Shown piece after piece: positions 11,235-35,426 of a stretch of DNA of 64,000 nt. Location of the stretch: the NCBI GenBank assembly GCA_964518565.1, contig CAZFGX010000001.1, forward strand, positions 669,404 to 733,403. The letters run 5' to 3'. This DNA comes from an uncultured Gammaproteobacteria bacterium. GTDB taxonomy: Bacteria > Patescibacteriota > Microgenomatia > CAZETR01 > Amesbacteraceae. The translations under genes were made by a program, and so were the position numbers. The stretch's first letter is position 1. Each line of letters begins with the position of its first letter. The notes below the pieces were generated by a model. It was not told where the DNA came from. It did not search any database and saw only the letters and a list, made by a program, of their open reading frames with translations.

Positions 11235-13070
11235 ATGCCCAAAACATTCACCGTCAAAGAAGTCGCTGATGCCTTGGGTTTTTCGACCAATACCGTCTAC
11301 AAATACCTAGACGAAGGCAAGATAAAAGCTACCCGTTTAGGGTCAGAAGGTCGCTTCAAAATCCCAGCTTCTGAAGTAGAAAGATTACTAGGAAAACCCA
11401 AGACGGTTCAGGTCATAAATCAACCCGTCCAAACAGTCACAGTCGTAGAAGAAACTGCCGAAAGTTTGATCCGCGAAAAGCCCGCCTCATCCCCAGAACT
11501 TTTTGATTGGCTCCTCTCCCTAACTGCAGTGTTTACAGGCATCTCCCAACTGACCAGTCCAATCAAAAATTTTGCCCTAGCTTCAGATCAATTTCGCACT
11601 CTGTTTTCTATCGCAAATATTGACCTAATTTTGGCAGGTGGATCACTGTTTGCCCTGGACATGTTTTCCCCAAAAAAAACTCGCATATTTTCACTGATCG
11701 CACGCATTCCTCTTGCTGCCACTTTTGGCTATTTAAGCTACCTCCATTTCGTCACCAAAGACATGTGGCAAGCCAGTTATTTTTTTGTACTCAGTCTATT
11801 TACGTTTGCGTCATGTGTATGGCCGGAAAAACACTTTGAAACAAAGTGTTCTCTATTCATGTTTTCTCTTATTAGCATCACGGCAATCGCCTATAGTCGC
11901 AACCCTCAACCGTTTATTTTTTCCGACCCACGCTATGAAATTTCCAACAACCCCAATGGCTTTGTTATGGGAGTGCTTGCCGTCAGCGCCATCATCACCG
12001 CCATTCTGATTTTTGCCAAAAATCGCAGTCGAGTCCTATACCCCATCTTTACTACTTTGACCGGTTGCATCTTTTTGGTTTTGACCATCAGCTATATCGC
12101 TACTGGCGACTTAGCCAAAACCATTATTTGTTTATTCACTGGCTGCTTTGCCCTGATACTTCCACTCACCAACCAAATCGAGTCTTTCTCTCACTATACC
12201 AAACGCCAACTTGCAATTGGATTCATTTGGATCGTTGCTGCCATCGCTCTGGGAGTTGTCGGGGTTCAAGTCACCAAGGCTACCACTGGTTCTCTCGCTA
12301 TCAAAAATGCAAAAGACAAAACCGACTCTACAGCCAAAGTAGCCGACCGCAGTATCTCTGATGCTTCACTGAATGTGATTCGTGCTGCCTCAGATGACCG
12401 ACTCGATTCTCTTCCTATATCCGAAGCCTCTGAAACGACCCTACTGGAAATGTCCAAAAGTATCTATTTCACATCTTCACTTACTCGTCGAGTCTTTTTT
12501 GCCGACCAAGATGGGAACACGTTTGGTGTTTATCCCCCAATCAACTCCAATATCCGTTCAGTAGCTACGCGTGACTTCTTCCAACAAACCAAATCAACTC
12601 GCAAAACCGTAGTCTCAGATGTAATCCAACCCCAAGTAGCCCTTCCAGCCACCGTTTATATCTCCACTCCAATCATTTCTGAAGCCAATGAATTTCGCGG
12701 CACGATCACCATAGCTATTGATCCACAACTACTTCAGGATCGATTGACACTCATGACTCAAGCCGAAAACAGTCGGATTCTCATCACAGATGTCAAAGGT
12801 GATTATTTATTTGGCCAAGAGGTTCTCTCAAAAGAATCAGCCAAAAATCAAAACTCAATTGTATTCGATAATTCAAAAAATCTAGCCGTGCAAACCAAGT
12901 CAAAAGCCGAAGCTCTAGGCTGGAATATTACTCTAGTTCAACCATATGACGAGGTATTCAAAGAATCCACAGCCATCTCATCTTTCATCTTTTTTGTGAG
13001 CGCAGTCCTTGGTATTGGCGCTCTGCTTATAAACACCCACTTACCTCACACACAAAAAGACCATGAATAA
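11235..13070 (+). CDS. membrane protein with an N-terminal excisionase/MerR-type HTH, about nine TM helices, a Cache-like extracytoplasmic domain and a final TM helix
   Basis: FTVKEVADALGFSTNTVYKYLDEGKIKATRLGSEGRFKIPASEVERLL is an HTH_17-like domain. Multiple hydrophobic helices follow. FFADQDGNTFGVYPP...RDFF...VVSDVIQP...TVYISTPII...GTITIAIDPQLL is a Cache-like region. The stop overlaps the giant gene start by 8 nt. Confidence 0.75.
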   Translation: MPKTFTVKEVADALGFSTNTVYKYLDEGKIKATRLGSEGRFKIPASEVERLLGKPKTVQVINQPVQTVTVVEETAESLIREKPASSPELFDWLLSLTAVFTGISQLTSPIKNFALASDQFRTLFSIANIDLILAGGSLFALDMFSPKKTRIFSLIARIPLAATFGYLSYLHFVTKDMWQASYFFVLSLFTFASCVWPEKHFETKCSLFMFSLISITAIAYSRNPQPFIFSDPRYEISNNPNGFVMGVLAVSAIITAILIFAKNRSRVLYPIFTTLTGCIFLVLTISYIATGDLAKTIICLFTGCFALILPLTNQIESFSHYTKRQLAIGFIWIVAAIALGVVGVQVTKATTGSLAIKNAKDKTDSTAKVADRSISDASLNVIRAASDDRLDSLPISEASETTLLEMSKSIYFTSSLTRRVFFADQDGNTFGVYPPINSNIRSVATRDFFQQTKSTRKTVVSDVIQPQVALPATVYISTPIISEANEFRGTITIAIDPQLLQDRLTLMTQAENSRILITDVKGDYLFGQEVLSKESAKNQNSIVFDNSKNLAVQTKSKAEALGWNITLVQPYDEVFKESTAISSFIFFVSAVLGIGALLINTHLPHTQKDHE

Positions 13071-16000
13071 ACGCGGTATTTCACCCATCATCATCTTGCT
13101 CGTCATTGGCCTTGCTACTACTGTCACCTTTGGCACAGCCACGCTTGTTCGCCATTATTCAAACCCGTTCGCCAAAGCCAATCTCCAGCTCAATCTCAAA
13201 AACAGTCCAGACGTAATTGATGCCAGCAAACTAGCTGGAGCTGTACTCCAAAGCCCAGTCGTAGGCATTACCCAATTGGAATCTGGCAAATACACCGCGT
13301 TCCAAATCCAAGATGCCGATATCCAAAATATAGACAACACCCCAACGCTATCTCTCAGTGCCCGACTACTTTCACTTTCCAACGACCCAATATCTCTGAG
13401 TGGCCCAAACAAAATCGACTACATCGAACTCAAAAATCATAAAACTTCCAATGCGAAGGTTGTGATCCCTGGTATCGTCCAAGTCAAAACCAAATCCGGC
13501 GACATCATAAACGTTCTCCTTTCCCAGGCCAAAATTCGCAACGGCCAAATCATCGATGCCTTTTATGGCCAGGTCGTAGATTCAGCCCATTTAATCGCTG
13601 GTGTAGGTGAAATCTCCGGCAATCTTACCTACCCAGCTGTCGAAATCGGTGGCCAACCTGCCAATTCAGGCATTTCGTCACTAGTCAGACAAGCCATGCG
13701 GGTTGTACCTTCACTTTCACTAGATTCCCGACCAATTTCAATCTCCCAAACCCAAGGTACAGTTGTACTGGGTGCAACTACGGACATGCTCCAAAGTCTA
13801 AATCTAGATTTCTCTGCTCCATACGATGCTGTCTTCGATGAAAAGTCTGGCACTTGGACTTTGCCTGGTCAATCTGGCGTATCAATTTCTACCATTGCCA
13901 CAGACCGCCAAGTAGCCAAGGCAATTGAAGACAAAATTAGTTCAGGTGATTTAGTGCTACCTACAGCCACAAATGGCATTACCGAAATCAAATCAGCCAA
14001 CGACAAGCTTACAGTGACCACTAACGAATCGCTAGTTACTCTAAGACTATCACTCGTAAACAGTATCGACTCTGATAGTATTATTGACGGTTCCATCACC
14101 AATTCTGATATCTATTCCGGAGCAAATATTGGCGATAGTAAGCTAGATCAAATCAAATCAGCCAACAAAGTGGCTGGCTCAGCCATCCAACTCTCTACCA
14201 CTGGTGGACTAGAAAATAATTCTGGACTATCCCTACTTACCTCATGTTCAATTAACCAAGTTCTCAAATGGGATGGGTCGGACTGGATTTGTGCTACCCA
14301 ATCTGGTGGTGGTGGCAGTAGTATAGATATTCAAGAAAACGACAGCACAATTACCAGTGCCGCAGCTTTTCTGGATTTTCTGGGTTCAGACTTCACCGTC
14401 ACCAACTCTCCGAGCGGTGAAGCAAATGTAGCTATCGATTACACAAATTCAGCCATCACTCGCTCCAATCAAAATGAAACTATCTCCGGTACTTGGACCT
14501 TTTCTAGCACACCCACCATCACCAATCTTCCCAATTCAGCTTTAGCCAACTCTGGTATTACTGTCACCGCGGGTACAGGCCTATCTGGCGGCGGAGCAGT
14601 CTCCCTCGGCGGTTCAGTCACCTTGTCTTCTACCCTCGGCACAGCCATCGATTCCTCTGAAATCACTAACGACACAATAGTCAATGCCGACATCAATTCA
14701 GCAGCCGCAATAGACTTCACAAAACTCGCCAGTCTGACTGCTGGGTATATCTTGCTCGGAAACTCTTCAAACGTAGTTACCGCCACCGCTCTTAGTGGCG
14801 ATATCACCATAGATAGTTCCGGTGTCACTACCATCGGCGCGGACAAAGTCGCCCTGGGTACCGATACTACCGGCAACTACGTTGCTGGCGCCACCACAAA
14901 TGGCGGTCTGGCACTCACTGGCACCGAAGCTGGCACACTCGGCCTCATCACTTCTTGTAGCGACAACCAAGTGCTCAAATATACAGCGGCCGGCGGTTGG
15001 GCATGTGCCAACGATACCACTGGTGGTGGATCAGGAAATTCATTCGAAACTATTTCCACTGCCTCTGGCACTTCCCCAGTCGCTGATTCCTCTACAGATA
15101 CGTTGTCGCTTACTGCTGGTTCAGGAATCACAATTGTAGGCGATGCCTCAAACGACAGTATCGCTATTGCGGCAACGCTAGGCAACACTATCGATTCTTC
15201 AGAAATCACCAATGACACCATCGTCAATGCCGATATCAACTCTGCTGCCGCCATCGACTTCTCAAAGTTAGGTGCACTCACAGCTGGGAACATTCTTTTG
15301 GGTAACAGTTCAAACGTCGCCACCTCCACTGCCATGTCAGGTGATATTACGATCGACAGTTCTGGCGTCACCACCATCGGCGCAGACAAAGTGGCTCTGG
15401 CCACCGACACTACTGGCAACTATGTCGCCACTGTCACTGGCAATTCTCAAATCTCAGTGTCTGGATCTGGTTCAGAAAATGCTGGCGTTTCTCTTTCCAT
15501 CGCCGCTGATAGTATTGGTGATTCACAGCTCGCCTTCAATACCGGCCAAAACCTGACCACTTCCTCCACGCCAACATTTAGCGCGCTAACACTAAACGGC
15601 AATCTGACTCTAGCCAATGCAGAAACCTTATCCAATGGTACCGACGGTCAAATTACTTTTGGTCGAAATGATGCTGGCACAGTCACACTGACTGCCGCTG
15701 ACAATGACTCCACCGCAGCACTGACTATCTTGCCCGGCGGCGCCGCAGGATTGACTCTCGGCGGATCGTCTACCACGGCTATCACCATAACCACCGATGG
15801 CACTGGTGACAGTGAAGTCGTTCTACCTGCAAATTCCGTAGGTAATTCAGAATTGGTAAATTCTAGTATTACCATCAATTCCGCTGGCATCCTCTCTGGT
15901 GGCGCCTCAGTATCTCTCGGTGGAAATATCACCCTCACCGCCACAGAAGCAGACACGCTCAACACCGTTGCGGGGCGTGGTGCATCTACTGCCACTGCAT

Positions 16001-19000
16001 TGACCCTCTCCTCCACCTCAAATGCCATCACCGCCGGCACACTAACCATCAATGGCGACACGTTTACTGATTTAACCGGTACCGGCTTGACCATTTCTGG
16101 CGGCGCTCTGCAAACTACACTTGGCACAGCAATTGATAGTTCCGAAATTACCGACGATACAATTACCGCCTCAGATCTAGCTGCCACACTCACATTCGCC
16201 GACGGTGATCTTTTAGATCTTTCCAATATCAACAACTCTTCTACATCTGAAGGCTTAAAACTCCCCCAAGCTACCGCTTGTACTTCAGCTACTGCTAACG
16301 GTCAAATTTGTTGGGACAACGACACCTTTGTTCTATATGTTGGCAACGGTACAACCGCCAGCTCCATCTCAAACCCCTTTGGTGTCAGTATCGACAGTAG
16401 CGAAATTACCAACGACTCCATCGTCAACGCTGACATCAACTCATCTGCAGCCATCGACTTCTCAAAATTAGCTACTCTAACTGCTGGAAATGTTTTACTC
16501 GGCAATAGTTCAAACGTCGCCACCTCCACTGCTCTTTCCGGCGATGTCACAGTCGACAGTTCCGGTGTGACCACTATTGGTGCAGACAAAGTCGCCCTGG
16601 CCACCGACACTACTGGCAACTATGTTGCTACCGTGACGGGAAACTCCCAAATCTCCGTCTCTGGTTCTGGTTCAGAAAACGCAGGCGTATCACTCAGTAT
16701 CGCTGCAGACAGTATTGGCGATTCTCAACTGGCATTCAATACTGGCCAAAATTTGACCACCGCCTCTTCTCCATCATTTGCTAGCCAAACACTTTCAAAC
16801 ACTACCAACCAACTCGTTCTCGGTACGACCAACACTACGACCATTTCCAGCACTGCACCAAGTACATCCAGAACCTACACCATTCCAGACTTTGGTTCCA
16901 ACGATTCTTTTGTTGGTTTAGCCGCTACTCAGACTCTAACCAATAAAACCATTTCCGGTTCATCAAACACACTGAGTAACATTGGCAATTCTTCACTCAC
17001 CAACTCATCCATCACCATAAACACTAGCGGCATTCTTACTGGTGGCGCCTCCGTCTCACTCGGCGGCAACATTACTCTCACAGCTACTGAAGCAGACACA
17101 CTAGCCACAGTTACAGGTCGCGGCGCTTCCACCTCGACAACACTTTCTCTTGCTGCTTTCACCGCATCTGACACTTTCACTCAAACCTATACTCCAGCCG
17201 GCACAGTAGCATCTCCCCGCGGCGTCATTCTGACTCCTACGTTTGGCATCGACGCTACAGATCAAACCTTAGCTGCTCTCTATATCAATCCCAACACCAA
17301 CTCCAACTCAGATTCTGGCGACTCCCTCAACGGAATAAATATCGCCGCCATTACAGCTTCATCCGCCAATGAAACCGCCATTCTTATTGGCTCTGCCGGT
17401 GGTGGCTCTACTGGCTGGAACAATATATTGGCCGTCAACAGCAGTGTCATCATCAATGGTTCAGGTGTTCTACAATCTGCAGCTCTTTCCGGCACATATA
17501 GCAATGCTCTCACCTTGTCTTCAACCTCAAATGCCATTACTGCTGGTACAGTTACCGTCAACTCCGACGCTATCACCGACTTTACTGGTACTGGACTCCA
17601 GATGAACAGTGGTTCACTCGAAACCACGTTGGGCACAGACATTACCAATTCAGAAATCAACGCCTCCGCTGCCATCGATTTTTCAAAGCTTGCGACCCTC
17701 ACAGCTGGCAACGTCTTGCTCGGCAATGCTTCCAACATCGCCACCTCTACTACCTTGTCTGGCGATATCACTGTAGACAATTCCGGTGTTACTACTATTG
17801 GTGCAGACAAAGTGGCTCTAGGAACAGATACCACCGGCAACTATGTTTCTTCAGCCACCACAAACAAAGGTTTAACTCTATCTGGCACCGAAGGTGGTTC
17901 ACTGGGACTCCAAAACTGTGCTGACAACGAAATCCTCAAATATTCCACTGGCACTTCTACTTGGAGCTGTGCTTCAGATGCCACAGGCGGCACTATCAAT
18001 TCTTTTGAAACTATCACCACTACCTCAGGCACTTCCCCAGTAGCCGATTCTTCTACAGACACTCTTACTCTTACAGCTGGCACTGGTATCACTGTCACTG
18101 GCGATTCTTCTACTGACACTATTACACTCGCCGCCACTCTTGGCACTGCAATTGATTCTTCAGAAATCACCAACGACACCATCGTCAATGCAGATATCAA
18201 CTCGGCTGCTGCCATCGACTTCTCCAAACTCGCCGCGTTAACAGCAGGCAATATTCTTCTTGGAAACGGTTCCAATGTCGCTACATCCACCACTCTGTCT
18301 GGTGATATTACGATCGACAGCTCTGGCGTCACCACCATCGGTGCCAACACTGTTGCATTAGCTACAGATACTACTGGCAACTACGTTGCCACAATTACCG
18401 GCAACTCTCAAATCTCCGTCTCTGGTTCTGGTTCAGAAAACGCAGGTGTATCACTCAGCATTGCTGCCGATTCCATTGGTGATTCTCAACTAGCTTTCGA
18501 TACTGGTCAAAATCTGACCTCCACTTCCACTCCTACATTTGGCGCCTTAACTCTAAATGGCAGTCTTACTCTGGCCAACTCGGAAACTATTGCAAACTCT
18601 ACCAACTCTCAATTCACTTTTGGCCGCAACGATGCCGGTACAGTCACATTGACGGCTGCAGACAATGATGCCACTGCCGCACTTAGTATTCTCCCTGGTG
18701 GCGCAGCCGCTCTGACACTGGGTGGATCTTCCACTACAGCCGTTACTTTGACAACTGACAATACCGGCGATGCAGAAGTAGTTCTACCAGCCAACTCAAT
18801 AGGCAATTCAGAATTAGTCAATTCCAGTATTACGATCAACTCTGCCGGCATTCTCACCGGCGGCGCCTCAGTCTCACTCGGTGGCAATATCACCCTCACT
18901 GCGACAGAAGCAGACACGTTAGACGCAGTTGCTGGCCGAGGCGCCTCTACTTCCACAGCCCTAACTTTATCCTCCACATCAAATGCCATCACAGCTGGCA

Positions 19001-22000
19001 CACTTACTATTTCCGGAGATGCCTTCACTGATTTAACAGGCACCGGGTTGACTATCTCTGGCGGTGCTCTTCAAACAACACTAGGTACTGCCATCGATAG
19101 CTCTGAAATTACCGACAACACCATCACTGCTTCAGATCTCAATGCCACATTGACCTTTGCAGACAGCGATCTACTAGATCTTTCCAGTATCAACAACTCC
19201 TCTGCCAGTGAGGGGTTGTTATTACCCCAAGCCACTGCTTGTACTTCAGCTACCGCCAATGGTCAAATTTGTTGGGACAACGACACATTTGTGTTGTACG
19301 TTGGTAACGGCACCACAGCCACCTCAATTTCAAATCCTTTTGGCGCCAGCATTGATTCATCTGAAATTACCAACGACACCATCGTCAATGCCGACATCAA
19401 TTCCGCTGCTGCCATCGATTTCTCCAAACTTGCGACCCTCACAGCTGGCAACGTCTTGCTCGGCAATGCTTCCAACATCGCCACCTCTACTACCCTTTCC
19501 GGAGACGTAACCGTCGACAGTTCTGGTGTGACAACTATTGGTGCAGATAAAGTCGCCCTGACAACAGACACCACCGGTAACTACGTCGCTTCAGTCACCA
19601 ACGGCAACGGTATCACCGGTGGCAATGGTGGTTCCGAAGGCGCAGCTCTGACTCTCGCCGTCGACCAAACCTACGCCTTTACCTGGACTGGTCTCCAAAC
19701 CCACACCAACACCATTACCGACGACGGTAGTCAATCAATTTTCAATCTGACGCTTGGCAACGACGCCAATACCGATACCGTTTCCGCCATCAAAGTAGCT
19801 GCTACCTCCGCCGCCACCGGTGACGCTGATACCATCTACGGCCTAGATATTGCCAATCTTGCTTCAGCAAACGCTACTGTTGCCGAACAGGCTATCCATA
19901 TCGGTTCTGGTTGGGACAATATCTTTGATATCAACGGCACACTTATTTCAGCCACTGAAATTGGCTTGCTTGATGGTCTATCTGGCACAATTCTGACTTC
20001 TGGCAACTACTCTTCCACTCTGGACAGTGTCTACGTCAACGTCGGTGAATCTCCCGCTGCTGGAGATATCACTGGCTCATTCTCCGGCGGTTTAACTATC
20101 GGTTCAGACTCAGTCGCCTTAGCCACTGACACTACCGGTAATTATGTCGCCACAGTTACTGGCAACTCTCAGATTTCTGTTTCAGGATCTGGTTCCGAAA
20201 ATGCCGGCGTTTCACTCTCAGTAGCTGCGGACAGTATCGGCGATTCCCAACTTGCCTTTGATACTGGTCAAAATCTGACTTCCACCTCCACTCCAACCTT
20301 TGGCTCATTAACTCTCAACGGCTCCCTTACCCTGGCCAACTCAGAAACTATTGCCAATAGCACAAATTCCCAATTTACTTTCGGCCGCAACGATGCCGGT
20401 ACAGTTACTCTGACCGCTGCCGACAATGATGCTACTGCTGCTCTGAGTATCTTGCCTGGCGGAGCAGCTGCATTTACTCTCGGCGGAGCTTCCACTACTG
20501 CCATAACTCTCACTACCGACAGCACAGGTGACAGTGAAGTAGTCTTACCAGCCAACTCAATCGGTAATTCAGAATTAGTGAATTCTAGTATCACCATAAA
20601 TTCTGCCGGCATCCTCACTGGCGGTGCATCTGTATCCCTCGGTGGAAATATCACACTCACTGCCACTGAAGCCGACACTCTAAATTCAGTCGCCGGTCGC
20701 GGTGCATCTACTGCCACAGCTTTAACACTTTCCTCTACTTCAAATGCTATTACTGCTGGAACGCTTACAATCAACAGTGACGCGTTTACAGATCTGACAG
20801 GCACTGGTCTGACAATCTCAGGTGGAGCACTGCAAACCACACTCGGAACTGCTATCGATAGTTCTGAAATTACCGACGATACAATCACCGCCTCTGATCT
20901 AAACGCTACCTTAACATTCGCAGACGGTGATCTAATCGATCTTTCCTCAATCAATAACTCCTCCACCACCGAAGGTCTAAAACTTCCCCAAGCCACTGCC
21001 TGTACTTCAGCCACCGCCAATGGACAAATTTGTTGGGACAACGATACATTTGTGTTGTATGTCGGCAATGGTACTACTGCTACCTCCATCTCCAATCCAT
21101 TTGGCGCTAGTATAGATTCTTCAGAAATCACCAACGACACCATAGTCAACGCGGACATCAATTCTGCCGCTGCAATAGACTTCTCCAAACTAGCCGCTCT
21201 TTCTTCTGGAAACATCCTCGTCGGTTCAGTGGGCAACGTCGCCACCTCAGTCGCCATGTCTGGAGACGTCACTATAGATAATGCCGGCGCCACAACTATT
21301 GGTGCCGACAAAGTGGCACTAACAACTGATACTACCGGCAACTATGTCGCTTCAGTTACCAACGGCACAGGTATTACAGGTGGCAACGGTGGTTCAGAAG
21401 GTGCTGCTCTAACCTTGGCAGTAGACCAATCAACAGCATTTACTTGGACCGGTCTCCAAACTCATACCAATACAATCACAGACGACGGATCTCAATCTAC
21501 CTTCAACCTCACCCTTGGCAATGATGCAAATACCGACACCATTTCTGCCATCAAAGTCGCCGCCACTTCGGCTGCCACTGGCGACATCGATACAGTCTAC
21601 GGACTCGATATCGCCAACCTAGCTTCCGCCAATGGTACTGTCTTAGAACAAGCCATTCATATCGGCACAGGTTGGGACAATATCTTTGATCTAAACGGCA
21701 CACTTATTTCTGCCACTGAACTAGGTCTTTTGGACGGTCTATCAGGTACACTACTTACGTCAGCCAATTACACGTCCACTCTCGACAGTGTCTATGTCAA
21801 TGTCGGCGAATCACCTGCCGCAGGCGACATTGCCGGTTCCTTCTCTGGCGGCCTAACGGTCGGCGCTGATTCCGTTGCTCTAGCTACAGATACTACTGGA
21901 AACTATGTCGCCACTATCACTGGCGATTCTCAAGTTTCAGTCTCTGGTTCTGGATCTGAAAATGCTGGCGTATCTATCTCCATAGCTGCAAATAGCATCG

Positions 22001-25000
22001 CCGACGCCCAACTAGCTTTCAACACAGGTCAACACTTAACCACTACATCCACACCTACTTTTGGTTCACTCACCCTCAATGGATCCCTCACTTTGGCCAA
22101 CAGCGAAACGATTGCAAACGGCACAGACGGCCAAATCCTCTTCTCTCGCAACGACGCCGGCACAGTCACGATCAATGCTGCCGATAACGATGCCAATGCA
22201 GACCTCGTAATCAGAGCTGGTGGCACAGGTGCATTAACCTTTGGCAATGCAAGCAACACGTCCATCACCCTTACCACTGATAGTACTGGTGACGCGGAAG
22301 TCGTCCTACCAGCAAGCTCAGTTGGCAATTCTGAACTAGTAAATTCCTCAATTACCATCAATTCATCAGGCATCCTAACTGGTGGCGCTTCAGTATCTCT
22401 TGGTGGAAATATTACCCTAACCGCCACTGAAGCAGACACTCTAAACTCAGTCGCTGGTCGTGGCGCATCTACTGCCACTGCCCTGACACTTTCTTCCACT
22501 TCAAATGCCATTACTGCCGGTACGATCACAGTTAACGCCGATGCTATTACAGACTTCACCGGCACTGGTATCACGATTTCCGGTGGTGCACTCCAAACCA
22601 CTCTCGGTACTGCGATCGATTCTTCAGAAATTACTGACAATACTATCACTGCCTCAGATCTCAATGCCACATTGACCTTTGCAGACAGTGATCTAATCGA
22701 CCTCTCTGCCATAAACAACTCCTCAACAACTGAAGGCTTACTTCTTCCTCAAGCCACCGCTTGTACTTCAGCTACTGCCAACGGCCAAATCTGCTGGGAC
22801 AACGATTCCTTCACACTCAGTATCGGCAATGGCACAACTACCACATCCATAGGCAACCCCTTCGGTGCCAGTATCGATTCTTCAGAAATCACCAATGACA
22901 CCATCGTTAATGCCGACATCAACTCCGCTGCCGCCATCGACTTTTCCAAGCTGGCCGCTCTTTCCTCTGGAAACATCTTGGTCGGTTCTGTAGGCAACGT
23001 TGCCACATCAGTTACCATGTCTGGCGACATCACTATCGACAACACTGGCGCCACTACTATCGGAGCAGATAAAGTCGCCTTAACTACCGACACCACTGGT
23101 AACTATGTCACTTCCGTCACCAACGGCACAGGTATTACAGGTGGCAATGGTGGATCTGAAGGTGCAGCCTTAACCTTGGCTGTAGATCAAACCACCGCTT
23201 TCACTTGGACTGGTCTCCAAACCCACACCAACACCATCACCGACGATGGTAGTCAATCTATATTCAACCTCACTCTAGGCAACGATGCTAACACCGACAC
23301 TATTTCTGCCATCAAAGTCGCAGCCACTTCTGCGACCACTGGCGATGCCGACACAGTCTACGGTCTAGATATCGCCAACTTATCTTCAGCTGATGGCACT
23401 GTTGCAGAAAATGCAATTCACATCGGCACAGGCTGGGACAACGTCTTCGACCTCAACGGTACTCTTATTTCCAGCTCAGAACTTACTTTATTAGATGGAG
23501 TTTCTGGCACTCTCGTCACCACCACCACCAACCCCACTTCAGCCGACATATCTGGTTCATTCTCAGCTGGATTCACAGTCGCAGCTAATGCAGTAGCCTT
23601 AGCTACCGACACTACTGGCAATTATGTCGCAACCGTCGCCGGTGATTCCCAAATCTCAGTTTCAGGCTCTGGTTCAGAAAACGCTGGAGTTTCACTCTCA
23701 ATTGCCGCCGACAGTATTGGCGATTCCCAACTCGCTTTCAATACCGGTCAAAATCTAACCACTACTTCTACTCCCACCTTTGGCTCACTCACTCTCAATG
23801 GCTCTCTCACCCTCGCCAACTCAGAAACTATTGCCAATGGTACAGATGGTCAAATTCTTTTCTCTCGCAACGATGCTGGCACTGTCACCATAAACGCCGC
23901 AGACGATAATGCCAACGCAGATCTGGTTGTCAGAGCCGGCGGCACTGGCGCTCTTACACTCGGAAACTCTAGCAATACTGCCATTACACTAACCACTGAC
24001 AGTACTGGTGATGGCGAAATCGTTCTACCTGCCAACTCTATCGGCAACTCAGAACTCGTAAACTCTGCCATCACCATCAATTCCGCTGGCATTCTCTCCG
24101 GAGGCGCTTCCGTTTCACTAGGCGGCAATGTCACTCTAACCGCCACTGAAGCAGACACGCTCAACACAGTTGCAGGTCGCGGCGCCTCCACTGCTACTGC
24201 CTTGACACTCTCCTCCACATCAAACGCCATTACCGCCGGAACCATCACCGTCAATTCAGACGGAATCACCGACTTTACTGGTACTGGCTTACAAATGAAC
24301 AGTGGATCCTTAGAAGCCACCCTGGGTACCAGTATCGTTTCCGGCGAAATCACCGACGACACTATTACTGCCTCAGACCTAAACGCTACTCTCACATTTG
24401 CTGACAGTGACATGATTGACCTCTCCAGTATCAACGGTTCATCTACTACTGAAGGGCTTAAACTCCCACAAAATACCTCCTGTGCTTCATCTACTGCCAA
24501 TGGCCAGATTTGTTGGGACAACGACGGTTTTGTTCTCTACATCGGTAACGGCACTACGACCACGGCCATTACTGGTGGTGGCGGAAATTCATTTGAAACT
24601 ATCACTACCACTTCTGGCTCTTCCCCAGTCGCCGATTCTTCCACCGACACACTCACACTTACCGCCGGAACCGGTATGACCGTTACCGGTGATTCCTCTA
24701 CTGACACCATTACTCTCGCCACTACTCTCGGCACTGCTATCGATAGTTCAGAAATCACTAACGATTCGATCGTTAATGCTGATATTAATTCGGCTGCCGC
24801 CATCGACTTCTCCAAGCTCGCTACCTTGTCTTCAGGCAACATTCTCGTTGGATCAGTCGGCAATGTCGCCACATCAGTCGCGATGTCTGGCGACGTCACT
24901 ATCGACAACACAGGTGCCACCACCATCGGTGCAGACAAAGTTGCCTTAACGACAGACACCACTGGCAACTATGTCCAAAGTATCACCAACGGTACAGGTA

Positions 25001-28000
25001 TCTCCGGCGGCAATGGTGGTGGCGAAGGCTCAGCTCTTACTCTTGCAGTGGATCAAACCACGGCCTTCACTTGGACAGGTCTACAAACTCATACCAACAC
25101 TATTACCGATGATGGGGCCCAATCTACCTACAACCTCACCCTCGGCAATGATGCCAATACAGATACGGTTTCAGGTGTAGCTATCAATGTCACCTCCACA
25201 GCTACTGGTGACGCCGACACACTCTACGGTCTAAACATTGCCAATATCACTGCCCAAGCCGTGGTCACTGAAACCGCTATCAACATCGGCACAGGTTGGG
25301 AACAGGCTATCAACGCCGGCGGTACGTTGATCTCCCTCTCAGAACTCCAATTAATCGATGGTGGTATAGCTCTATCTGAACTCACTGATTCTGGTACTCT
25401 GACAGCTGGCACAGTCGACATCAACGGTGGCGCAATTGACGGCGTAACTATTGGTGGCTCTTCAGCAGGTGCCGGCACATTCACCACCCTAACAGCTACC
25501 GGCGATGTCACCATGAACGATGCTGGCGCAGACAATATCTTAATCGGTGCCGCCGCAGACACACTGACTCTGACATCAAATTCCCTCTCGCTCACCGATG
25601 ACAACTGGAGTATTTCCACCTCCGGCGCTCTTACCACTTCCGGAGCCATCAATGCCAACGGCGGCATCACCACATCCACTTCAAACACAGCTCTCGCTTT
25701 CACTGTAAACGGATCTGGAGACTTCACCTTTACTGCCGACAGTGACAGCCAAGTCCAAATCAGTCTCGACGACAGCAGTACCAACACCGGTCTCGAACTT
25801 CTGCGCCTGACCCGCACTACTTCCAGTACAGCAGCTGACAGTATCGGTGGCTACATAAGCTTCTATATCGAAAACGATACTAGTACTGCCGAAGCTGCCC
25901 GCATCTTAGCCAACCTCCGCGATGCCAATGTCGCCACAACAGTAGGTACAGATATAACCATGTACGTAGCACGCGACGGATCCACCGGTGAATTGATCGA
26001 CGGTATGACAGTCTATGTGGACGCTGCCAACAAATGGGTCTGTGGTAACGCCAACAAACTCGGCAACGATGGCTACGACTGTTTCGGTTTCCAAATCGGT
26101 ACATCCAACATCATCAACTTTAGCTTTGATGGGAGTAATAGATTCAATGTGGATTACAGTTCAGGTAGTACTCAGCTAGCTCTTTATTCTGTAAACAGTG
26201 GCGACGATCTCTTGGTTAAAACTCTCGGCGACCAGGCCATCAGCTTTGACCAAAACAACGACGGCAACAACATGGTTATTGATACTGATGGCCAAGTAGG
26301 TATCGGTACTGATACTCCAGCCAATGCCCTAGAAGTCTTGTCTACCACCACTCCCCAATTTAGAGTTTCCTACGACACCAGCAACTACACCACTTTCGCC
26401 GTTTCCTCCACCGGCGTACTCACCATCGACTACACTGGTACAGCTGGCGGAATTACTCTAGCCGATTTCACCGGCGGTGGCTCTGGCTGTTCAGCCCTGG
26501 AGACCAACAGTTCAGGCGTCCTTGCCTGTGGCACAGACGATACTGGTGGATCCTCCACTATGCAAGGTGTATATGACAACGATGTCAACGGCAGCGATGT
26601 TACTATTGCCATGAATACTACAGACGGCTCAATCATTTTCACAGAAGCTGCTGGTACTAATCACCAAATCACAACCACTGCCGCCCCAACGCTTGACCAG
26701 CTGGCTCTTACAAATACTGGATTTGGCACCACCACTGATGGTGTAGATGGTCTATCAATTGTCTTCGAACAAGCCGACGATGCCGACGCCACAGATACAA
26801 ACGCCGGCCTAAATGTTTCCGTCTCTGGAGCCTCTGGAGACCTAGGAGATATCCTTTCAGGAATCAGTATTAACACAACTGCTCAAACAGCCAACAATCG
26901 CGAAATTGGTCTCACTATCGGTACAGGATTCGATGAAGACATTCGCTTTGCTTCCGCTTCTGCAATAATTCGTATGCAAGACGGTGGCACACTCAGCTTT
27001 ATGGATGGCTCATATGGCCAAGGTGCTACAAAGGATCAACCAAATGCCCGCGTAATTGAGTACTTTAGCACCGCAAACTATGGCGTCTTTGAAGCTGGTG
27101 GGTTTGTAAATATTGATGGTAGCTACTATCAAGATAACTTTAGTATCCCCATGACAGCAGTAACAGCGGATGTGACTAGTCGCACAAACCGATTTGGTGA
27201 CCATGGAAACTGGTCGTTTGACGAAGCCGGTACCGGCGGTGGCTCAACCGCGACCAACTCAACAAAGTATGGATGTACTCTATCTCAAGGTGGTTCTGGT
27301 GCAGGAGCTGGTACAAACACATCCTTTGGTCGTTTAGAGTTCTCTCCAGATTTGGGAACACACACACATACTGCCGCAGATTCTGCCTGTGTCGCCCATC
27401 TTGGTATAGGCACCGGCACAAACACTGCTGGTGTATTAAACGCTGCCTACAAATATGTTCAATATTTCAAAGTTGGTTTTTCATCAGGTTTCACCAACAA
27501 CAATTCAGCCAATCAAGCGTTTGTAGGTGCACACAATTACACAGAAGCCTGGGGACAGAATTGGAGCTCAATTGCAGCAACTCATGGCTTTATTGGGTTT
27601 GCGAATCTTATCTCCACAACCACAGCCACAGATGCACAAGGCGGCACCCAATGGAACGGATTTGCTCGCGTAGGCAACGCTATTAGCTCGGTCGCCTGTG
27701 GAACAACCGGAAATATTAGTACAGCTTCAAATGCCTGGGCACTTATGCGTATCGAAGCACGTGCCACAAATGACGTGCACTTCTTTATTGATAGTGACGT
27801 AAGCAATGGTATAGCACTAACAGAGTGTGGCGCTGGTGTTTCTTCAAACATCTCCACTCGCAACTTAAACCCAGCCATGAATGTTGTCCATCAACAAAAC
27901 CTTTCCTCTGCCGGTAATTCTTGGACCATGTATGTAGACTTATATGCCCACGTTCAAGACGATCCAAAACCAGAAAATGGTCCAATAGCCTTCAGTGACA

Positions 28001-29262: not shown

Positions 29263-30880
29263 CATCTAATTCAGGTGCAGCCTCAAACATAAACTTACGA
29301 GTAACTTCAGTACATTTATCAGGGTAGCGATCACAAGTATAAGTCTGAAGCAGATAAACATCTTTTCCTTTAGCTAATTGTTCTTGAACAAATTCTTGGG
29401 CAGAAGTGTTGTATAAAAAAGATCCATAGTAAACAACAGTGTGTCCATGCAACAAAGACAAAGCGGTCATCGCATGTATGACAACCGCATCAGAAGAAAT
29501 ACGCGGTGTCACGTAATCCTCAATATATGTATGAACATCCCGAGGTCCCTTATCCACATACTCATAATAAGGAGATACAGAAATCATTCTTTTATATCGA
29601 AAAACAGTCGGCAAAAGCGACAAAGCCACCACAACACTTAAAAGTATAAAAAAACTCTTTCTCTGACGATGCACAAAATACGCTCTGAGTAGTGATGCAG
29701 AATACCAAACAGCTAAAATCGTCAAGGGAACGACTAAAATTAAAAAATATCTACCATAAGACCCAGAATACTCAACAGAAAAAAACTCCCCAGCAAAATA
29801 AAACGAATAAATTAAAAAATAAAATCCAAACCAAGCAACAAACGCCCACTTACGAACATCTTTTATGGTCAAGATGCCCAGCAATGAAAATACAGTAAGA
29901 ACCACCGGCCACTCAGGCCTTTTAAATAAAGACAAAATATTGGGTAATGTATTCCTAATAACATATCCCACACTAAATGCTTCTAAAGGAGTTGCGTCTC
30001 CACAACACCACGTTTGACCTAAAACAGATAAAGACACGATAGCTCGGAATCCAATCAAGCATCCACTAACCAGCGCGTAGCCTACATCCTTTTTAGTAAA
30101 AAGAGGCAAACCCAACTGTTTACGAATAGCAAAAATAGCCATTAGCTGAACTCCCAAAAATAAAAAGGCTTCCAAACGCACAAACAATAAAAGTAGGGTA
30201 GCCGAAAGCAAAAATAACCAACTCCCAAACGCTGGACGAGATCCATACCAAGCAGCTCCAATGAAAGCAAGTAAAGCAAAAAAAACAAAGTAAGAATCCA
30301 ATCCAATAGACAAACTCCAAAAAATAGGCACTGGTAATATAGCAAAAATTCCAGCAGCCACCAAGCCCATACTACGTGACCGTAAATACATAACTACAGC
30401 TATAAAAACAAAAATAATTTGGCTAGTGCTAAAAATTCTTGAACCAATAAATAGGTATTTTTCACTATAACCGAACACTTTAAATATCCAAGCATTTAAA
30501 GTCGGAACTGTGACTCGCGCAACCAAATCCGGATCGCCTGTGAGAAAAGTATCATTTGTCGCAACGTTTATCAGACGCTGAGTGCCGAATTTTGCAAAAG
30601 TTACAGCCCCGGAAAGATAACGATCCTCATCAAAATAAATTCTATGTTGATCTGGACTATAAAAACGTAATAGTCCTCCAACAACAACAATAACTCCAAG
30701 CAATACCCAAATCCAAACAGACTGAGATCGACAATATTTAAAAATTTTCCCTAGCTGAAACAACCCAATAAATACTAAAACAAAACCACATATACTTACA
30801 ACCCAAGGAGACACATCCGAGATAAGCCAACTTCCCATATTACTTATTATCACTATCTGCTTCATCAATTGCCACACCAA
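29222..30880 (-). CDS. GT-C fold membrane glycosyltransferase (PMT/ArnT-like, GT39/GT83 type)
   Basis: More than 10 TM helices. The first extracytoplasmic loop carries RFYSPDQHRIYFDEDRY (DE motif). The 3' end overlaps the 3' end of the giant gene by 41 nt, convergently. Confidence 0.7.
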   Translation of the reverse strand: MVWQLMKQIVIISNMGSWLISDVSPWVVSICGFVLVFIGLFQLGKIFKYCRSQSVWIWVLLGVIVVVGGLLRFYSPDQHRIYFDEDRYLSGAVTFAKFGTQRLINVATNDTFLTGDPDLVARVTVPTLNAWIFKVFGYSEKYLFIGSRIFSTSQIIFVFIAVVMYLRSRSMGLVAAGIFAILPVPIFWSLSIGLDSYFVFFALLAFIGAAWYGSRPAFGSWLFLLSATLLLLFVRLEAFLFLGVQLMAIFAIRKQLGLPLFTKKDVGYALVSGCLIGFRAIVSLSVLGQTWCCGDATPLEAFSVGYVIRNTLPNILSLFKRPEWPVVLTVFSLLGILTIKDVRKWAFVAWFGFYFLIYSFYFAGEFFSVEYSGSYGRYFLILVVPLTILAVWYSASLLRAYFVHRQRKSFFILLSVVVALSLLPTVFRYKRMISVSPYYEYVDKGPRDVHTYIEDYVTPRISSDAVVIHAMTALSLLHGHTVVYYGSFLYNTSAQEFVQEQLAKGKDVYLLQTYTCDRYPDKCTEVTRKFMFEAAPELDAMGMSMLRVRLKK

Positions 30881-32864: not shown

Positions 32865-33531
32865 ATACTAATCTAAAAATCTTTTCAAACAAATCATCAC
32901 TTTTAGCCATCATGCACAATACGTAGGGTCTCTTCGGTCGGTAGACCAAACGGCAATCTCCAACGTTATTTTTTGATTTGAATCGAAACATGGAAACATC
33001 TGCTTCAGACACGTGTTGAACATGAGATTTTAAAATTTTATTTGAATTTTCCAAATCTAAATAAGTAGATAAATACAAATTTCTCAAAACAGATGAAAAA
33101 TTCTTAGGACTCACGACCAAATCAGAATCGTTTTGACTCTGAGGAAAATCTAAATAATCAAAAATAGGCTGATGAGAATTAAGGCTTTCTAATTCATTCA
33201 AAAGCGGAATCTGAGTCGTAGCAAACATGGGCACCTTTTCGTTTACCCCCACATAGACACCTGAGGGTAAATATTCAAAATATATACCCATGGCAGTATT
33301 CGCCACAATTTGCTCCAGTTGAGTTCGTAAGGAGACAAAGTTTATAAGAACATCATTTGGCTGGTTTATAAATACTCTCGGTGATAAAAACCGATAGGAT
33401 AAAACACTTGCAGATTGGAGCGATGAAGCCTGAACGGGATTATAGACGCGACGAAATATGATAACAAATAAAACAATATTTGTGACACATGATGCACAGA
33501 AAAAAACCCAAAATGAATGTTTTTTTGTCAT
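32842..33531 (-). CDS. degenerate paralog of the class A beta-lactamase-fold proteins (lacks SxxK and SDN)
   Basis: Shares the YFEYLPSGV..G.NE, SPKN.SSVLR.LY.S.YLD and RPYVLCMM blocks with its two neighbours, but the catalytic motifs are missing. Confidence 0.55.
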   Translation of the reverse strand: MTKKHSFWVFFCASCVTNIVLFVIIFRRVYNPVQASSLQSASVLSYRFLSPRVFINQPNDVLINFVSLRTQLEQIVANTAMGIYFEYLPSGVYVGVNEKVPMFATTQIPLLNELESLNSHQPIFDYLDFPQSQNDSDLVVSPKNFSSVLRNLYLSTYLDLENSNKILKSHVQHVSEADVSMFRFKSKNNVGDCRLVYRPKRPYVLCMMAKSDDLFEKIFRLVYEYVDAY

Positions 33532-34469
33532 GGAGTAGGTAATTTTGACACATAGTCATATACAATAGTAGAAATCCCCTTCATAGTAACATCAGCTTCT
33601 GCCTCTGAAGAATTAATCATCATACACAACAAATACGGTCTTTGAGGTAAATAAAAAATTCCGCAGTCAGTAAATACATCACTTACTCCTGGCTTTCCCT
33701 TTCGTACACCTATTTTGTGAGCAACAGTCAAATCTTTTGGCACCCCAGCTACAATCATGTCGGAAAACTCACTACGACTAAGCAAATCCAGAACTGAATT
33801 GGAATTTGTTGGATTTATAAAAGACGAAAAATATAAGCTTCGCAAAATTGAAGAATAATTCTTAGGGGAAATCGTTGGCTCTTCACCAAAATCTTTAGGA
33901 ATTCCCAAATAATCATAAACATCCACTATTTGTTGCTGAGATACAAGTTTGAACAACAAATTTCTGGCAGTATTATCAGATTCTGCCAAAATTTTTTCCA
34001 AAGCGACAGACACGGTTAGTCGAGTACCTACCCCTTGTTTATACAACTCACCAAAATTCGGGTCTATGTCTTGTTCGGCTATTTCGATTTGATCCCCCGT
34101 ACCAATCCTTCCACTTTCGACTTGTTTCAAAACCGCCATGGCTAAAGGAATTTTCAACAACGACGCTTGAATAAATTCTTGATTTTCATGAATGCCAATA
34201 GACGTCCCACTGGGCAAATATTCAAAATACAATCCAACATTATCCTTTGTAGCCAGTATCTCGTTGAGAGCGGAACGTAAAACCACAAAATTAGTTAACA
34301 AGTGATATTGATGTCCTGCAAAAACACGCCGTGAGATATAAGGATACTGCTGGCTTAAATCTGAAGCCTGAGACACACCACTTTCCAAAGCTTTGGGTGA
34401 AAAATTAATTAAAAACGCCGCTAAAACAATATTTATACCAACAGAAACACAAAACAAAACATATTTCAT
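33528..34469 (-). CDS. class A beta-lactamase-fold serine hydrolase-like protein with signal anchor
   Basis: ASLLK (SxxK), ESDNTARNLL (SDN motif, close to the TEM sequence SDNTAANLL), an EEP...SP omega-loop-like segment, and HKIGV in the KTG position. Confidence 0.7.
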   Translation of the reverse strand: MKYVLFCVSVGINIVLAAFLINFSPKALESGVSQASDLSQQYPYISRRVFAGHQYHLLTNFVVLRSALNEILATKDNVGLYFEYLPSGTSIGIHENQEFIQASLLKIPLAMAVLKQVESGRIGTGDQIEIAEQDIDPNFGELYKQGVGTRLTVSVALEKILAESDNTARNLLFKLVSQQQIVDVYDYLGIPKDFGEEPTISPKNYSSILRSLYFSSFINPTNSNSVLDLLSRSEFSDMIVAGVPKDLTVAHKIGVRKGKPGVSDVFTDCGIFYLPQRPYLLCMMINSSEAEADVTMKGISTIVYDYVSKLPTP

Positions 34470-34471
34470 AA

Positions 34472-35401: not shown

Positions 35402-35426
35402 GAATATATGCAGTATACTCCAACCC

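What the first reader, a model, noticed from the sequence alone, without database searches (positions are those of the whole stretch)
14600..25200. Near-identical 1.2-1.8 kb tandem repeats inside the giant gene
The same coding blocks (for example IDSSEITNDTIVNADINSAAAIDFSKLA and ATACTSATANGQICWDNDTFVLYVGNG) recur with spacings of 540, 1200 and about 1760 nt at high nucleotide identity. Such arrays are substrates for RecA-mediated expansion and contraction, so the fibre length or epitopes may vary between cells. They are also a classic assembly-collapse hazard, and the true copy number may differ.
Basis: seen in the sequence. Interest (0 to 1): 0.5.

Follow-up and report, generated by a model that had tools for sequence, protein, structure and literature searches.

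The report
Diverged module repeats in giant fibre gene
The repeats are real, but they are old, codon-scrambled copies (about 85% identical as protein, only about 75% as DNA) of shaft modules in a 5,399-residue, phage-tail-fibre-like surface protein of an ultrasmall (CPR) bacterium, so they are a stable structural feature, not a recombination hotspot or an assembly artefact.

Summary
The coding blocks recur at the stated spacings (543/540, 1200 and 1761 nt, plus 1719, 1866 and 2961), all in frame, inside one ORF (13063-29262, 5399 aa). This is far beyond chance.

They are not near-identical as DNA. Module copies are 72-95% identical as protein but 63-81% as DNA. Synonymous sites are almost saturated (pS 0.6-0.75, dN/dS 0.03-0.08). 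Only five exact repeats reach 31 nt; the longest is 66 nt.

The array is a mosaic of five module types (a, p, e, l, n) forming 1200-nt (a-e-l) and 1761-nt (a-n-e-l) units.

The protein has an N-terminal membrane anchor. Module a resembles cyanopodovirus tail fibres. The C-terminus carries a Peptidase_G2 intramolecular-chaperone domain like phi29 gp12. It reads as a self-assembling, probably trimeric, cell-surface fibre of a Patescibacteria cell.

Five other giant genes of this kind show the same pattern. Orthologues keep both ends, but total length varies (3075-5399 aa).

Frequent RecA-driven length switching and assembly collapse are therefore unlikely. k=31 assemblies do fragment exactly at the 32- and 36-nt exact repeats.

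The gene forms a conserved pair with an HTH-Cache membrane protein.

The parts
13063..29262 (+). Giant ORF, 5399 aa, rich in T/S/A/G. It is identical to database protein P0152, which is known from a single NCBI contig of 1,001,365 bp.
13072..13149 (+). N-terminal hydrophobic signal-anchor (aa 4-29), the only TM-like segment. It is preceded by the motif RG-ISP, which is conserved in orthologues.
   Evidence: Kyte-Doolittle scan; orthologue N-termini
14065..14355 (+). Divergent partial a'-p' modules (aa 335-431).
   Evidence: module HMM hits
14647..15189 (+). Block [a p], 543 nt
15190..16389 (+). Block [a e l], a 1200-nt unit, copy 1
16390..17637 (+). Block [a e'], where e' is a variant e module with an inserted segment. 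Part of that insert (17231-17466) is 79% identical in DNA to 62391-62626 in the second giant gene.
17638..18150 (+). Block [a(truncated) p]
18151..19350 (+). Block [a e l], a 1200-nt unit, copy 2. It is 90% aa and 77% nt identical to copy 1.
19351..21111 (+). Block [a n e l], a 1761-nt (587-aa) unit, copy 1
21112..22872 (+). Block [a n e l], a 1761-nt unit, copy 2. Against copy 1 it is 85.5% aa and 74.4% nt identical, with pS 0.69 and dN/dS 0.055.
22873..24591 (+). Block [a n e l], a 1719-nt unit, copy 3 (14 codons shorter in module n)
24505..25506 (+). Last block [p(partial) a n], which ends the repeat region at aa 4148. This n copy is closer to a copy in another protein (73%) than to its sister copies (61%).
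17689..17754 (+). 66-nt exact match to 19429-19494, the only long identical run. It is a probable short gene-conversion patch.
   Evidence: permutation test (0 of 2000 shuffles reached it; 99th percentile 33 nt)
27130..27972 (+). Possible concanavalin-A/SO2946-like lectin-fold domain (aa ~4690-4970) just before the cleavage site. Weak evidence.
   Evidence: Foldseek top hits 2a5z and legume lectins on a model region of pLDDT 50-70; Pfam SO2946-like_C E=0.16
27973..28452 (+). Peptidase_G2 intramolecular-chaperone (autoproteolytic) domain. The Pfam match itself covers aa 4971-5050; the stated end (aa 5130) is my extrapolation. Predicted cleavage is between A4993 and D4994 (D codon at 28042-28044).
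   Evidence: Pfam PF11962, 32.8 bits against a cut-off of 25; profile aligned to residue 1 of the phi29 gp12 autochaperone chain 3gqh; A, D, A, E and Y invariant among 10 homologues
28618..29034 (+). Conserved C-terminal domain (aa 5186-5324), also found in P0154 and the L009 giant, followed by an S/T/P-rich tail
11235..13070 (+). Upstream partner gene encoding HTH_17, several TM segments, dCache_1 and a final TM (611 aa). Its stop overlaps the giant gene's start by 8 nt. The pairing is conserved in relatives.

Best explanation
The region is the shaft-coding part of one giant gene for a membrane-anchored, phage-tail-fibre-like surface fibre of a Patescibacteria (CPR) cell.

The shaft is built from five module types: a (85 aa), p (~96), e (229), l (86) and n (~178-187). 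These were duplicated in frame, singly and as blocks (a-e-l = 1200 nt, a-n-e-l = 1761 nt, and a larger 2961-nt super-block).

The duplications are old. Synonymous sites have drifted almost to saturation, while strong purifying selection (dN/dS 0.03-0.08) has kept the protein copies 72-95% identical. I infer that the constraint comes from each module having to pack into the same, probably trimeric, fibre.

Inferred assembly route: the chain is exported and held by its N-terminal anchor. The C-terminal Peptidase_G2 intramolecular chaperone nucleates folding and trimerisation and then cuts itself off at A4993|D4994. This would leave a long fibre with a possibly lectin-like tip that contacts a host or partner cell.

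The repeats set fibre length. Length changes on evolutionary time scales through rare module gain or loss and occasional short gene-conversion patches. It is not a high-frequency switch.

Shown: the repeat anatomy, the divergence statistics, the G2 domain, the module similarity to phage fibres, the variable length of orthologues and the conserved gene pair. Inferred: trimer formation, autocleavage, surface display and an adhesion role.
For: Repeat anatomy and significance.

Protein against DNA identity, pS 0.60-0.76, dN/dS 0.03-0.08 for unit pairs at 80% aa identity or more. Same-codon use at identical residues is 0.40-0.50 against 0.38-0.40 expected from random codon draws. Few exact repeats.

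The same pattern (up to 97% aa with 83% nt or less, pS 0.57-0.75) holds in five other giant genes of this kind: L006, L007, L009, L010 and the window's second giant.

Tail-fibre nature. Module a is 52-65% identical to segments of cyanopodovirus proteins, including the annotated P-SSP7 gp17 tail fibre. Relatives carry Mtd_N and Peptidase_S74 domains and are named 'tail fiber domain-containing protein'. Peptidase_G2 scores above the Pfam gathering score. The alignment reaches the first residue of the phi29 gp12 autochaperone chain 3gqh, and the A-D-x-A-E-x-Y motif is invariant.

There is a single N-terminal TM segment. The context is a cellular chromosome with DprA, ComM, ribosomal proteins, ATP synthase and ArgRS, and no phage genes.

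Orthologues share the N-terminal ~500 aa (L008, L009, L010/L011) and the C-terminal region (L009, L006), but total length ranges from 3075 to 5399 aa. Copies within a protein are usually more alike than copies in different proteins, and copy number varies from 1 to 7. Very large surface proteins with adhesion domains are already noted in Patescibacteria (PMC13059738).
Against: No structural confirmation. AlphaFold2 monomer models were poor (pLDDT 51 and 43), so the fibre or trimer fold of the modules is inferred from homology only.

The PDB match to phi29 gp12 is weak on its own (E 0.06), and the lectin-like tip rests on a low-confidence model.

The interior of the gene (15218-23208) could not be checked against an independent assembly.

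The absence of young, DNA-identical duplicates in the six genes may partly reflect ascertainment, because genes containing such repeats rarely assemble completely.

The adhesion function is untested.
Confidence: 0.75

Rival explanations
1. The array consists of near-identical DNA repeats that RecA recombines frequently, so fibre length or epitopes vary from cell to cell, as in a contingency locus.
For: In-frame head-to-tail repeats of a surface protein. One 66-nt identical patch and four others of 32-38 nt exceed shuffle expectation, which shows that some exchange between copies has happened. Family members differ in module number.
Against: Nucleotide identity is 63-82% everywhere, and synonymous sites are near saturation. 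Long unit pairs have no identical runs longer than shuffled controls. From general knowledge, recombination frequency falls steeply with this much divergence. Two other samples carry the same allele at both gene ends at 99.99-100% identity. RTX-type adhesins, where this model does apply, have dozens of identical repeats (10.1101/2025.09.30.679566).
Confidence: 0.06
2. Assembly artefact. The true locus has a different copy number, either through collapse of identical copies or through a mis-join between paralogous copies.
For: Short-k assemblies break inside the gene. The interior could not be verified independently. Truly identical extra copies would be invisible in a short-read assembly.
Against: All copies differ by at least 18%, so reads of about 100 nt place uniquely. 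Only one exact repeat exceeds 38 nt. The 16.2-kb frame is intact and every module boundary is in register. The breakpoints of the two independent k=31 assemblies (15218 and 23208) fall exactly where the window's own 36-nt and 32-nt repeats predict, which implies that the distant partner copies exist in those samples too. The source contig is 1.0 Mb.
Confidence: 0.08
3. Active selection for codon divergence. Copies are kept different at the DNA level because identical repeats would be deleted by recombination or slippage, so only codon-scrambled arrays persist. This is not exclusive of the best explanation.
For: All six giant genes of this kind that I examined lack any copy pair above 83% nt identity, although aa identity reaches 97%. 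No young duplicates were seen.
Against: Same-codon use is slightly above the random expectation, not below it. Identical-run lengths match shuffled controls and are not shorter. Plain saturation under purifying selection therefore suffices. There is also ascertainment bias against assembling identical repeats.
Confidence: 0.2

Closest known systems
Phage tail fibres and tailspikes with a C-terminal intramolecular chaperone, specifically phi29 gp12 pre-neck appendage (Peptidase_G2; PDB 3gqh/3gqk) and T7-like cyanopodovirus gp17 fibres (P-SSP7)
   Same: C-terminal G2 autochaperone domain with the conserved Asp at the position of the phi29 cleavage product's first residue. Module a is 52-65% identical to stretches of cyanopodovirus fibre proteins. 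Serial shaft modules are followed by a distal domain.
   Different: The protein is encoded in a cellular chromosome with no phage genes nearby. It has an N-terminal membrane anchor in place of a virion-attachment domain. It is 5-6 times longer than these phage proteins. It is paired with an HTH-Cache membrane protein.
Giant repetitive bacterial adhesins (RTX/BIg-extender adhesins, Bap/Rib-type proteins)
   Same: It is probably among the largest proteins of the genome. It is surface-located, has a long repetitive extender region and may have a ligand-binding region near the distal end. Short-read assemblies are disrupted by it.
   Different: Those arrays commonly contain many DNA-identical repeats, and copy number varies among strains (10.1101/2025.09.30.679566). 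Here copies are 63-81% identical in DNA. The modules are tail-fibre-like, not Ig-like. There are no RTX or T1SS signals.
Very large surface proteins of Patescibacteria/CPR episymbionts
   Same: Length above 1500 aa, a TM or signal segment, putative adhesion domains, and proposed roles in host recognition (PMC13059738). Homologues are named from Woesebacteria, Levybacteria, Moraniibacteriota, Paceibacterota and Uhrbacteria.
   Different: As far as my searches showed, this particular architecture has not been described. It consists of an anchor, a conserved N-terminal domain, tail-fibre modules and a G2 chaperone, always next to an HTH_17-dCache gene.
Bordetella phage BPP-1 Mtd (target of a diversity-generating retroelement)
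   Same: Module l gives a sub-threshold Mtd_N match (13.6 bits). Several relatives carry PF18454.
   Different: There is no TR/VR-type repeat pair outside the gene. The ORFs I scanned around it include no reverse transcriptase. The match is to the N-terminal structural domain of Mtd, not to its variable lectin domain.

Membership tests
Near-identical tandem-repeat (recombination-prone, length-variable) surface-protein genes | Head-to-tail in-frame repeats inside a surface-protein ORF | tested here: met
   all spacings are multiples of 3
Near-identical tandem-repeat (recombination-prone, length-variable) surface-protein genes | Copies nearly identical at the DNA level (roughly 95% or more), with long exact tracts | tested here: not met
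   63-82% nt identity; pS 0.6-0.75; longest exact tract 66 nt; TRF finds nothing
Near-identical tandem-repeat (recombination-prone, length-variable) surface-protein genes | Copy-number polymorphism within a population or among close strains | not testable with these tools
   Only the gene ends are visible in two other samples, and they are identical there. The giant protein's 90%-identity cluster has one member, from one contig.
Tail-fibre/tailspike proteins with a Peptidase_G2 intramolecular chaperone | C-terminal Peptidase_G2 (PF11962) domain above the gathering score | tested here: met
   32.8 bits against a cut-off of 25, aa 4971-5050
Tail-fibre/tailspike proteins with a Peptidase_G2 intramolecular chaperone | Conserved cleavage-site Asp at the start of the chaperone domain | tested here: met
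   D4994 aligns with residue 1 of 3gqh (weak E 0.06). A4993, D4994, A4996, E4997 and Y4999 are invariant in 10 homologues.
Tail-fibre/tailspike proteins with a Peptidase_G2 intramolecular chaperone | Homotrimeric fibre or beta-helix fold, and actual autocleavage | not testable with these tools
   Only monomer AF2 was available, and it gave pLDDT 51 and 43.
Tail-fibre/tailspike proteins with a Peptidase_G2 intramolecular chaperone | Part of a virion, prophage or tailocin gene cluster | tested here: not met
   The neighbours are DprA, ComM, HTH-Cache, beta-lactamase-like genes, GT2, ribosomal proteins and ATP synthase. The C-terminal profile found no relatives in IMG/VR.
CPR/Patescibacteria giant surface (adhesin-like) proteins | Length above 1500 aa with a signal or TM segment, in a CPR genome | tested here: met
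   5399 aa with a TM segment at aa 4-29. Homologues carry CPR names, and the source contig is 1.0 Mb.
CPR/Patescibacteria giant surface (adhesin-like) proteins | Recognisable adhesion or ligand-binding domain | tested here: inconclusive
   A ConA/SO2946-like fold was seen only on a low-confidence model, plus a Pfam match at E=0.16.
DGR variable proteins (Mtd-like) | Template/variable repeat pair and a nearby reverse transcriptase | tested here: not met
   No extra-genic partner repeat apart from the second giant gene. No RT among the ORFs scanned; not every small ORF was scanned.

The most novel reading that the evidence does not exclude
The giant fibre and its invariably adjacent HTH_17-multiTM-dCache protein form a contact-sensing device peculiar to CPR bacteria. 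In some relatives, and in the window's second giant gene, the HTH is fused directly to the fibre's cytoplasmic N-terminus ahead of the TM helix. In this reading a cell-length extracellular fibre is mechanically or chemically coupled, through the membrane, to a DNA-binding domain, so that host contact at the fibre tip is relayed to transcription. The shaft modules are kept codon-diverged so that this long repetitive gene stays genetically stable in a tiny genome.
Probability: 0.12. Interest if true: 0.75.

Novelty: new member of a known kind. Interest (0 to 1): 0.35.

Why it matters
For the scan, this corrects a plausible misreading. Identical peptides do not imply identical DNA. The locus is not a recombination hotspot, and the assembled copy number can probably be trusted.

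For evolution, six genes of this kind show internal repeats kept up to 97% identical as protein while synonymous sites are near saturation. This is the opposite of the concerted-evolution pattern usual in bacterial repeat adhesins.

For biology, the gene is a strong candidate for the host-contact fibre of an uncultured episymbiont. It borrows phage tail-fibre parts, including a self-cleaving assembly chaperone, and it sits in a conserved two-gene cassette with a membrane HTH-Cache protein. That cassette gives a concrete, testable handle on how CPR cells recognise partners.

Tried and rejected
- Tandem Repeats Finder found nothing, because the copies are too diverged and the period is too long.
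- Self-blastp returned only the identity hit, so I used chunked queries and landmark motifs instead.
- Pfam, PHROGs and NCBIfam on the repeat region gave no significant family.
- AlphaFold2 on the 587-aa unit (pLDDT 51) and on the C-terminal 1200 aa (pLDDT 43) was too poor for confident fold assignment. I ran one Foldseek search and treat its result as a lead only.
- PDB sequence search with the unit gave no hit.
- Scans of genome contigs and metagenome contigs with 5000 aa of the protein found only one partial relative, Woesebacteria GW2011_GWB1_39_12. A close-strain comparison of repeat number was therefore impossible.
The scan with the C-terminal alignment found nothing.
The 674-aa downstream protein is not on record in that index.
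- The giant protein's cluster listing showed no variants.
- The DGR idea prompted by Mtd_N was rejected.
- Selection for shorter-than-random identical runs was tested and not seen.
- Literature searches found no description of this family.


Full report
**1. The observation**

The region lies inside a single ORF, window 13063-29262 (+), which encodes 5399 aa with no internal stop. Direct repeats were found from about 14597 to about 25512. Their start-to-start spacings are 543, 540, 1200, 1221, 1719, 1761 and 1866 nt, all multiples of three.

A k-mer dot-plot summary shows 196 shared 11-mers at offset 1761, 136 at 2961, 96 at 3522, 67 at 4722 and 65 at 1200. No offset in 20 codon-shuffled versions of the gene exceeded 7. 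The two quoted peptides recur exactly 4 and 3 times.

**2. 'Near-identical at high nucleotide identity' is wrong**

- Self-blastn gives 72-80% identity over the long alignments; only a few short segments (71-215 nt) reach 83-88%. Tandem Repeats Finder reports nothing.
- Per module, copies are 60-95% identical as protein but 63-81% identical as DNA. The best 150-codon chunk in the whole gene is 95% aa and 82% nt identical.
- For the two full 587-codon units: aa identity 85.5%, nt identity 74.4%, third-position identity 45%, pS 0.69, pN 0.097, dN/dS 0.055. Other unit pairs at 80% aa identity or more give pS 0.60-0.76 and dN/dS 0.03-0.08.
- At positions where both copies have the same amino acid, the same codon is used in 40-50% of cases. 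Random draws from the region's own codon usage predict 38-40%. Synonymous sites are close to saturation.
- The DNA encoding the identical 28-residue peptide differs at 10-15 of 84 positions between copies.
- Only five exact repeats reach 31 nt (66, 38, 36, 35 and 32 nt). Only the 66-nt run (17689-17754 = 19429-19494) is clearly beyond permutation expectation. The long unit pairs have identical runs no longer than shuffled controls.

I read the 66-nt run as a rare short gene-conversion patch on an otherwise old, diverged background.

**3. Anatomy of the array**

Landmark motifs and module HMMs resolve five module types:

- a: 85 aa, IDSSEIT...DTTGNYV
- p: about 96 aa, ...LKY...NSFETI...
- e: 229 aa, SGSGSENAG...SSTSNAITAG...
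- l: 86 aa, IDSSEITDDTITASDL...ICWDND...
- n: about 178-187 aa, ...WTGLQTH...

Their order is: a'p' (degenerate, from nt 14065), [a p], [a e l], [a e'], [a p], [a e l], [a n e l] three times, then [p a n], ending at nt 25506.

This explains the 1200-nt (a-e-l), 1761-nt (a-n-e-l), 543-nt (a-p) and 2961-nt (super-block) periodicities. It is a nested mosaic, not a simple tandem array.

**4. What the gene is**

The protein has a single N-terminal hydrophobic anchor at aa 4-29.

The repeat modules match no curated family, but several results point to phage tail fibres:

- Module a is 52-65% identical to stretches of cyanopodovirus proteins, including the annotated T7-like tail fibre gp17 of P-SSP7.
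- Module l gives a sub-threshold Mtd_N match.
- Many of the 2138 library relatives (E up to 0.001; lengths of the best 150 listed run from 210 to 5838 aa) carry Mtd_N or Peptidase_S74 domains, or are named 'tail fiber domain-containing protein'. Where named, they come from Patescibacteria lineages.

Near the C-terminus, aa 4971-5050 match Pfam Peptidase_G2, the intramolecular-chaperone autoproteolytic domain, at 32.8 bits against a gathering score of 25. A profile of ten homologues aligns this stretch to the first residue of PDB 3gqh, the cleaved autochaperone domain of the phi29 gp12 pre-neck appendage. That places D4994 at the position of the phi29 product's first Asp. This alignment is weak on its own (E 0.06). 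A4993, D4994, A4996, E4997 and Y4999 are invariant in the family alignment.

Just upstream of that site, a moderately confident part of an otherwise poor AF2 model resembles SO2946 and legume-lectin jelly-rolls. A weak Pfam SO2946-like_C match agrees with this. I treat it as a lead only.

The surroundings are ordinary chromosomal genes: ComM, DprA, NusG, L11, L1, L10, L7/L12, MreB, the ATP synthase operon, ArgRS and two tRNAs. There are no phage genes.

The proteins occur on one NCBI contig of 1,001,365 bp. That size, a GC content of 44% and the names of the homologues indicate a Patescibacteria genome. The organism itself was not identified.

**5. Most likely mechanism**

The following steps are inferred. 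They rest on what is established for phi29 gp12 and for endosialidase-type fibres (my own knowledge of Xiang et al. 2009 and of Schwarzer/Schulz et al.), not on tests made here.

- The chain is exported and stays anchored by its N-terminus.
- The C-terminal G2 chaperone nucleates trimerisation and folding of the fibre, then excises itself at A4993|D4994.
- This would leave a very long fibre whose distal domain binds a partner-cell surface.

On this reading the repeats are the shaft, and their number sets its length. The very low dN/dS fits modules that must all pack into the same intertwined fold.

**6. Comparative evidence**

The HTH_17-multiTM-dCache gene directly upstream (11235-13070) overlaps the giant gene's start by 8 nt. 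It belongs to a family of about 50 similarly built CPR proteins.

Every locus examined shows the same pairing:

- L008 (60% identical; also has DprA upstream and the same 8-nt overlap), L009, L010 and L011: the next gene is a giant orthologue.
- L006: a dCache gene is followed by an HTH-TM-fibre fusion of 4387 aa.

L008, L009 and L010/L011 align with the window protein over the N-terminal ~500 aa (26-58% identity). L009 and L006 align over the C-terminal G2 region. Total lengths are 3075, 3166, 4387 and 5399 aa. The middle of the protein, and so fibre length, is what varies between lineages.

Module copies within one protein are generally more alike than copies in different proteins, and copy numbers range from 1 to 7. 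This indicates lineage-specific amplification.

Five further giant genes show the same signature: L006, L007, L009, L010 and a second giant ORF in this window at 54527 to beyond 64000. Their internal repeats reach up to 97% aa identity, never exceed 83% nt identity, and have pS 0.57-0.75.

Expansion and contraction therefore happen on evolutionary time scales. No young duplicates are visible. One caveat applies: genes containing DNA-identical repeats seldom assemble whole, so they would be under-represented among the genes I could examine.

**7. The assembly question**

Two independent Logan (k=31) assemblies, from SRR29476910 and SRR16481186, carry this strain. They are 99.993-100% identical to the window over 9.7-21 kb.

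Their contigs end at window 15218 and 23208. These are exactly the last unique 31-mers before the 36-nt repeat (15189-15224 = 22872-22907) and the 32-nt repeat (19684-19715 = 23206-23237).

The exact coincidence also implies that the distant partner copies exist in those samples.

Every copy differs from every other by at least 18%, and only one exact tract exceeds 38 nt. Collapse is therefore unlikely with ordinary reads. I could not retrieve the interior from a second assembly, so only read mapping or long reads can close this point.

**8. Comparison with what is known**

The closest mechanistic relatives are phage fibres and spikes with a G2 intramolecular chaperone, and the giant adhesins of bacteria.

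It fails the defining test for recombination-prone repeat adhesins, which is DNA-identical repeats. RTX adhesins, by contrast, often have more than 20 identical repeats that defeat short-read assembly (10.1101/2025.09.30.679566).

It is not part of a phage cluster. It shows no DGR hallmarks.

It fits the already noted class of very large surface proteins of Patescibacteria that are proposed to mediate host contact (PMC13059738).

I therefore file it as a new member of a known kind. Two less ordinary aspects are worth recording: the family-wide pattern of conserved protein with scrambled codons, and the conserved HTH-Cache/fibre cassette.

**9. Verdict**

It is not supported for near-identity, for frequent RecA-driven variation or for collapse. 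Interest is moderate to low for the repeat claim itself. The cassette, and the HTH-fused fibres in particular, are the most novel thread.

Noticed in passing
window 54527-64000 (+), runs off the window end: A second giant ORF of at least 3158 aa, not listed by the ORF listing because it runs off the end. It begins with a MerR/HTH_17-like helix-turn-helix, then a TM helix at aa ~105-130, then fibre-like repeats. It shares a 133-aa segment with giant 1 (71% aa; 79% nt, 17231-17466 against 62391-62626). Its internal repeats show the same pattern of conserved protein and diverged DNA.
   Followed up: partly
window 11235-13070 (+); loci L006, L008, L009, L010, L011: The HTH_17-multiTM-dCache_1 membrane protein is always directly upstream of a giant fibre orthologue, with an 8-nt overlap here and in L008. 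In L006 and in the window's second giant gene the HTH is fused to the fibre protein itself. This suggests a conserved sensor/regulator-fibre cassette in CPR bacteria.
   Followed up: partly
window 13063-13150; N-termini of the giants in L008, L009, L010: The motif G-[IL]-[ST]-P-[IL] sits just before the hydrophobic helix (RG-ISPIIILL, KA-FSPIIILL, AG-ITPLLVL, AG-LTPLVVL). It is reminiscent of class III (prepilin-type) signal peptides but lacks the Glu at +5. Pfam found no pilin N-terminal domain.
   Followed up: no
window 14877-25817, minus strand: Eight long antisense ORFs (179-357 aa, mostly TTG starts; for example 20268-21341) lie inside the giant gene. They are most likely by-products of its biased T/S/A/G codon content and not genes.
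   Followed up: no
proteins P0130, P0132, P0139, P0144; L009 giant: Relatives of the non-repeat C-terminal region carry Peptidase_M23, SH3_3 or pectate-lyase-type domains. Some family members therefore combine the fibre with cell-wall-binding or cell-wall-degrading modules.
   Followed up: no
L007 6001-17219: The 2171-aa Mtd_N-bearing relative P0153 sits among many small unannotated genes. It is followed, after one 507-aa gene without a Pfam match, by four 2OG-Fe(II) oxygenase genes in a row (one unannotated gene on the other strand sits among them). This may be a phage or mobile-element context, unlike the window.
   Followed up: no
window 33528-35428 (-): Two adjacent paralogous Beta-lactamase2-family genes (313 and 318 aa) lie downstream of three unannotated genes that follow the giant gene.
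   Followed up: no
window 29222-29262: The convergent downstream ORF (29222-30880, minus strand, 552 aa as listed, no family match) overlaps the giant gene's 3' end by about 40 nt. In the independent contig L004 the same gene is called 14 residues shorter (538 aa), which leaves the same ~40-nt overlap with the giant gene's 3' end.
   Followed up: no
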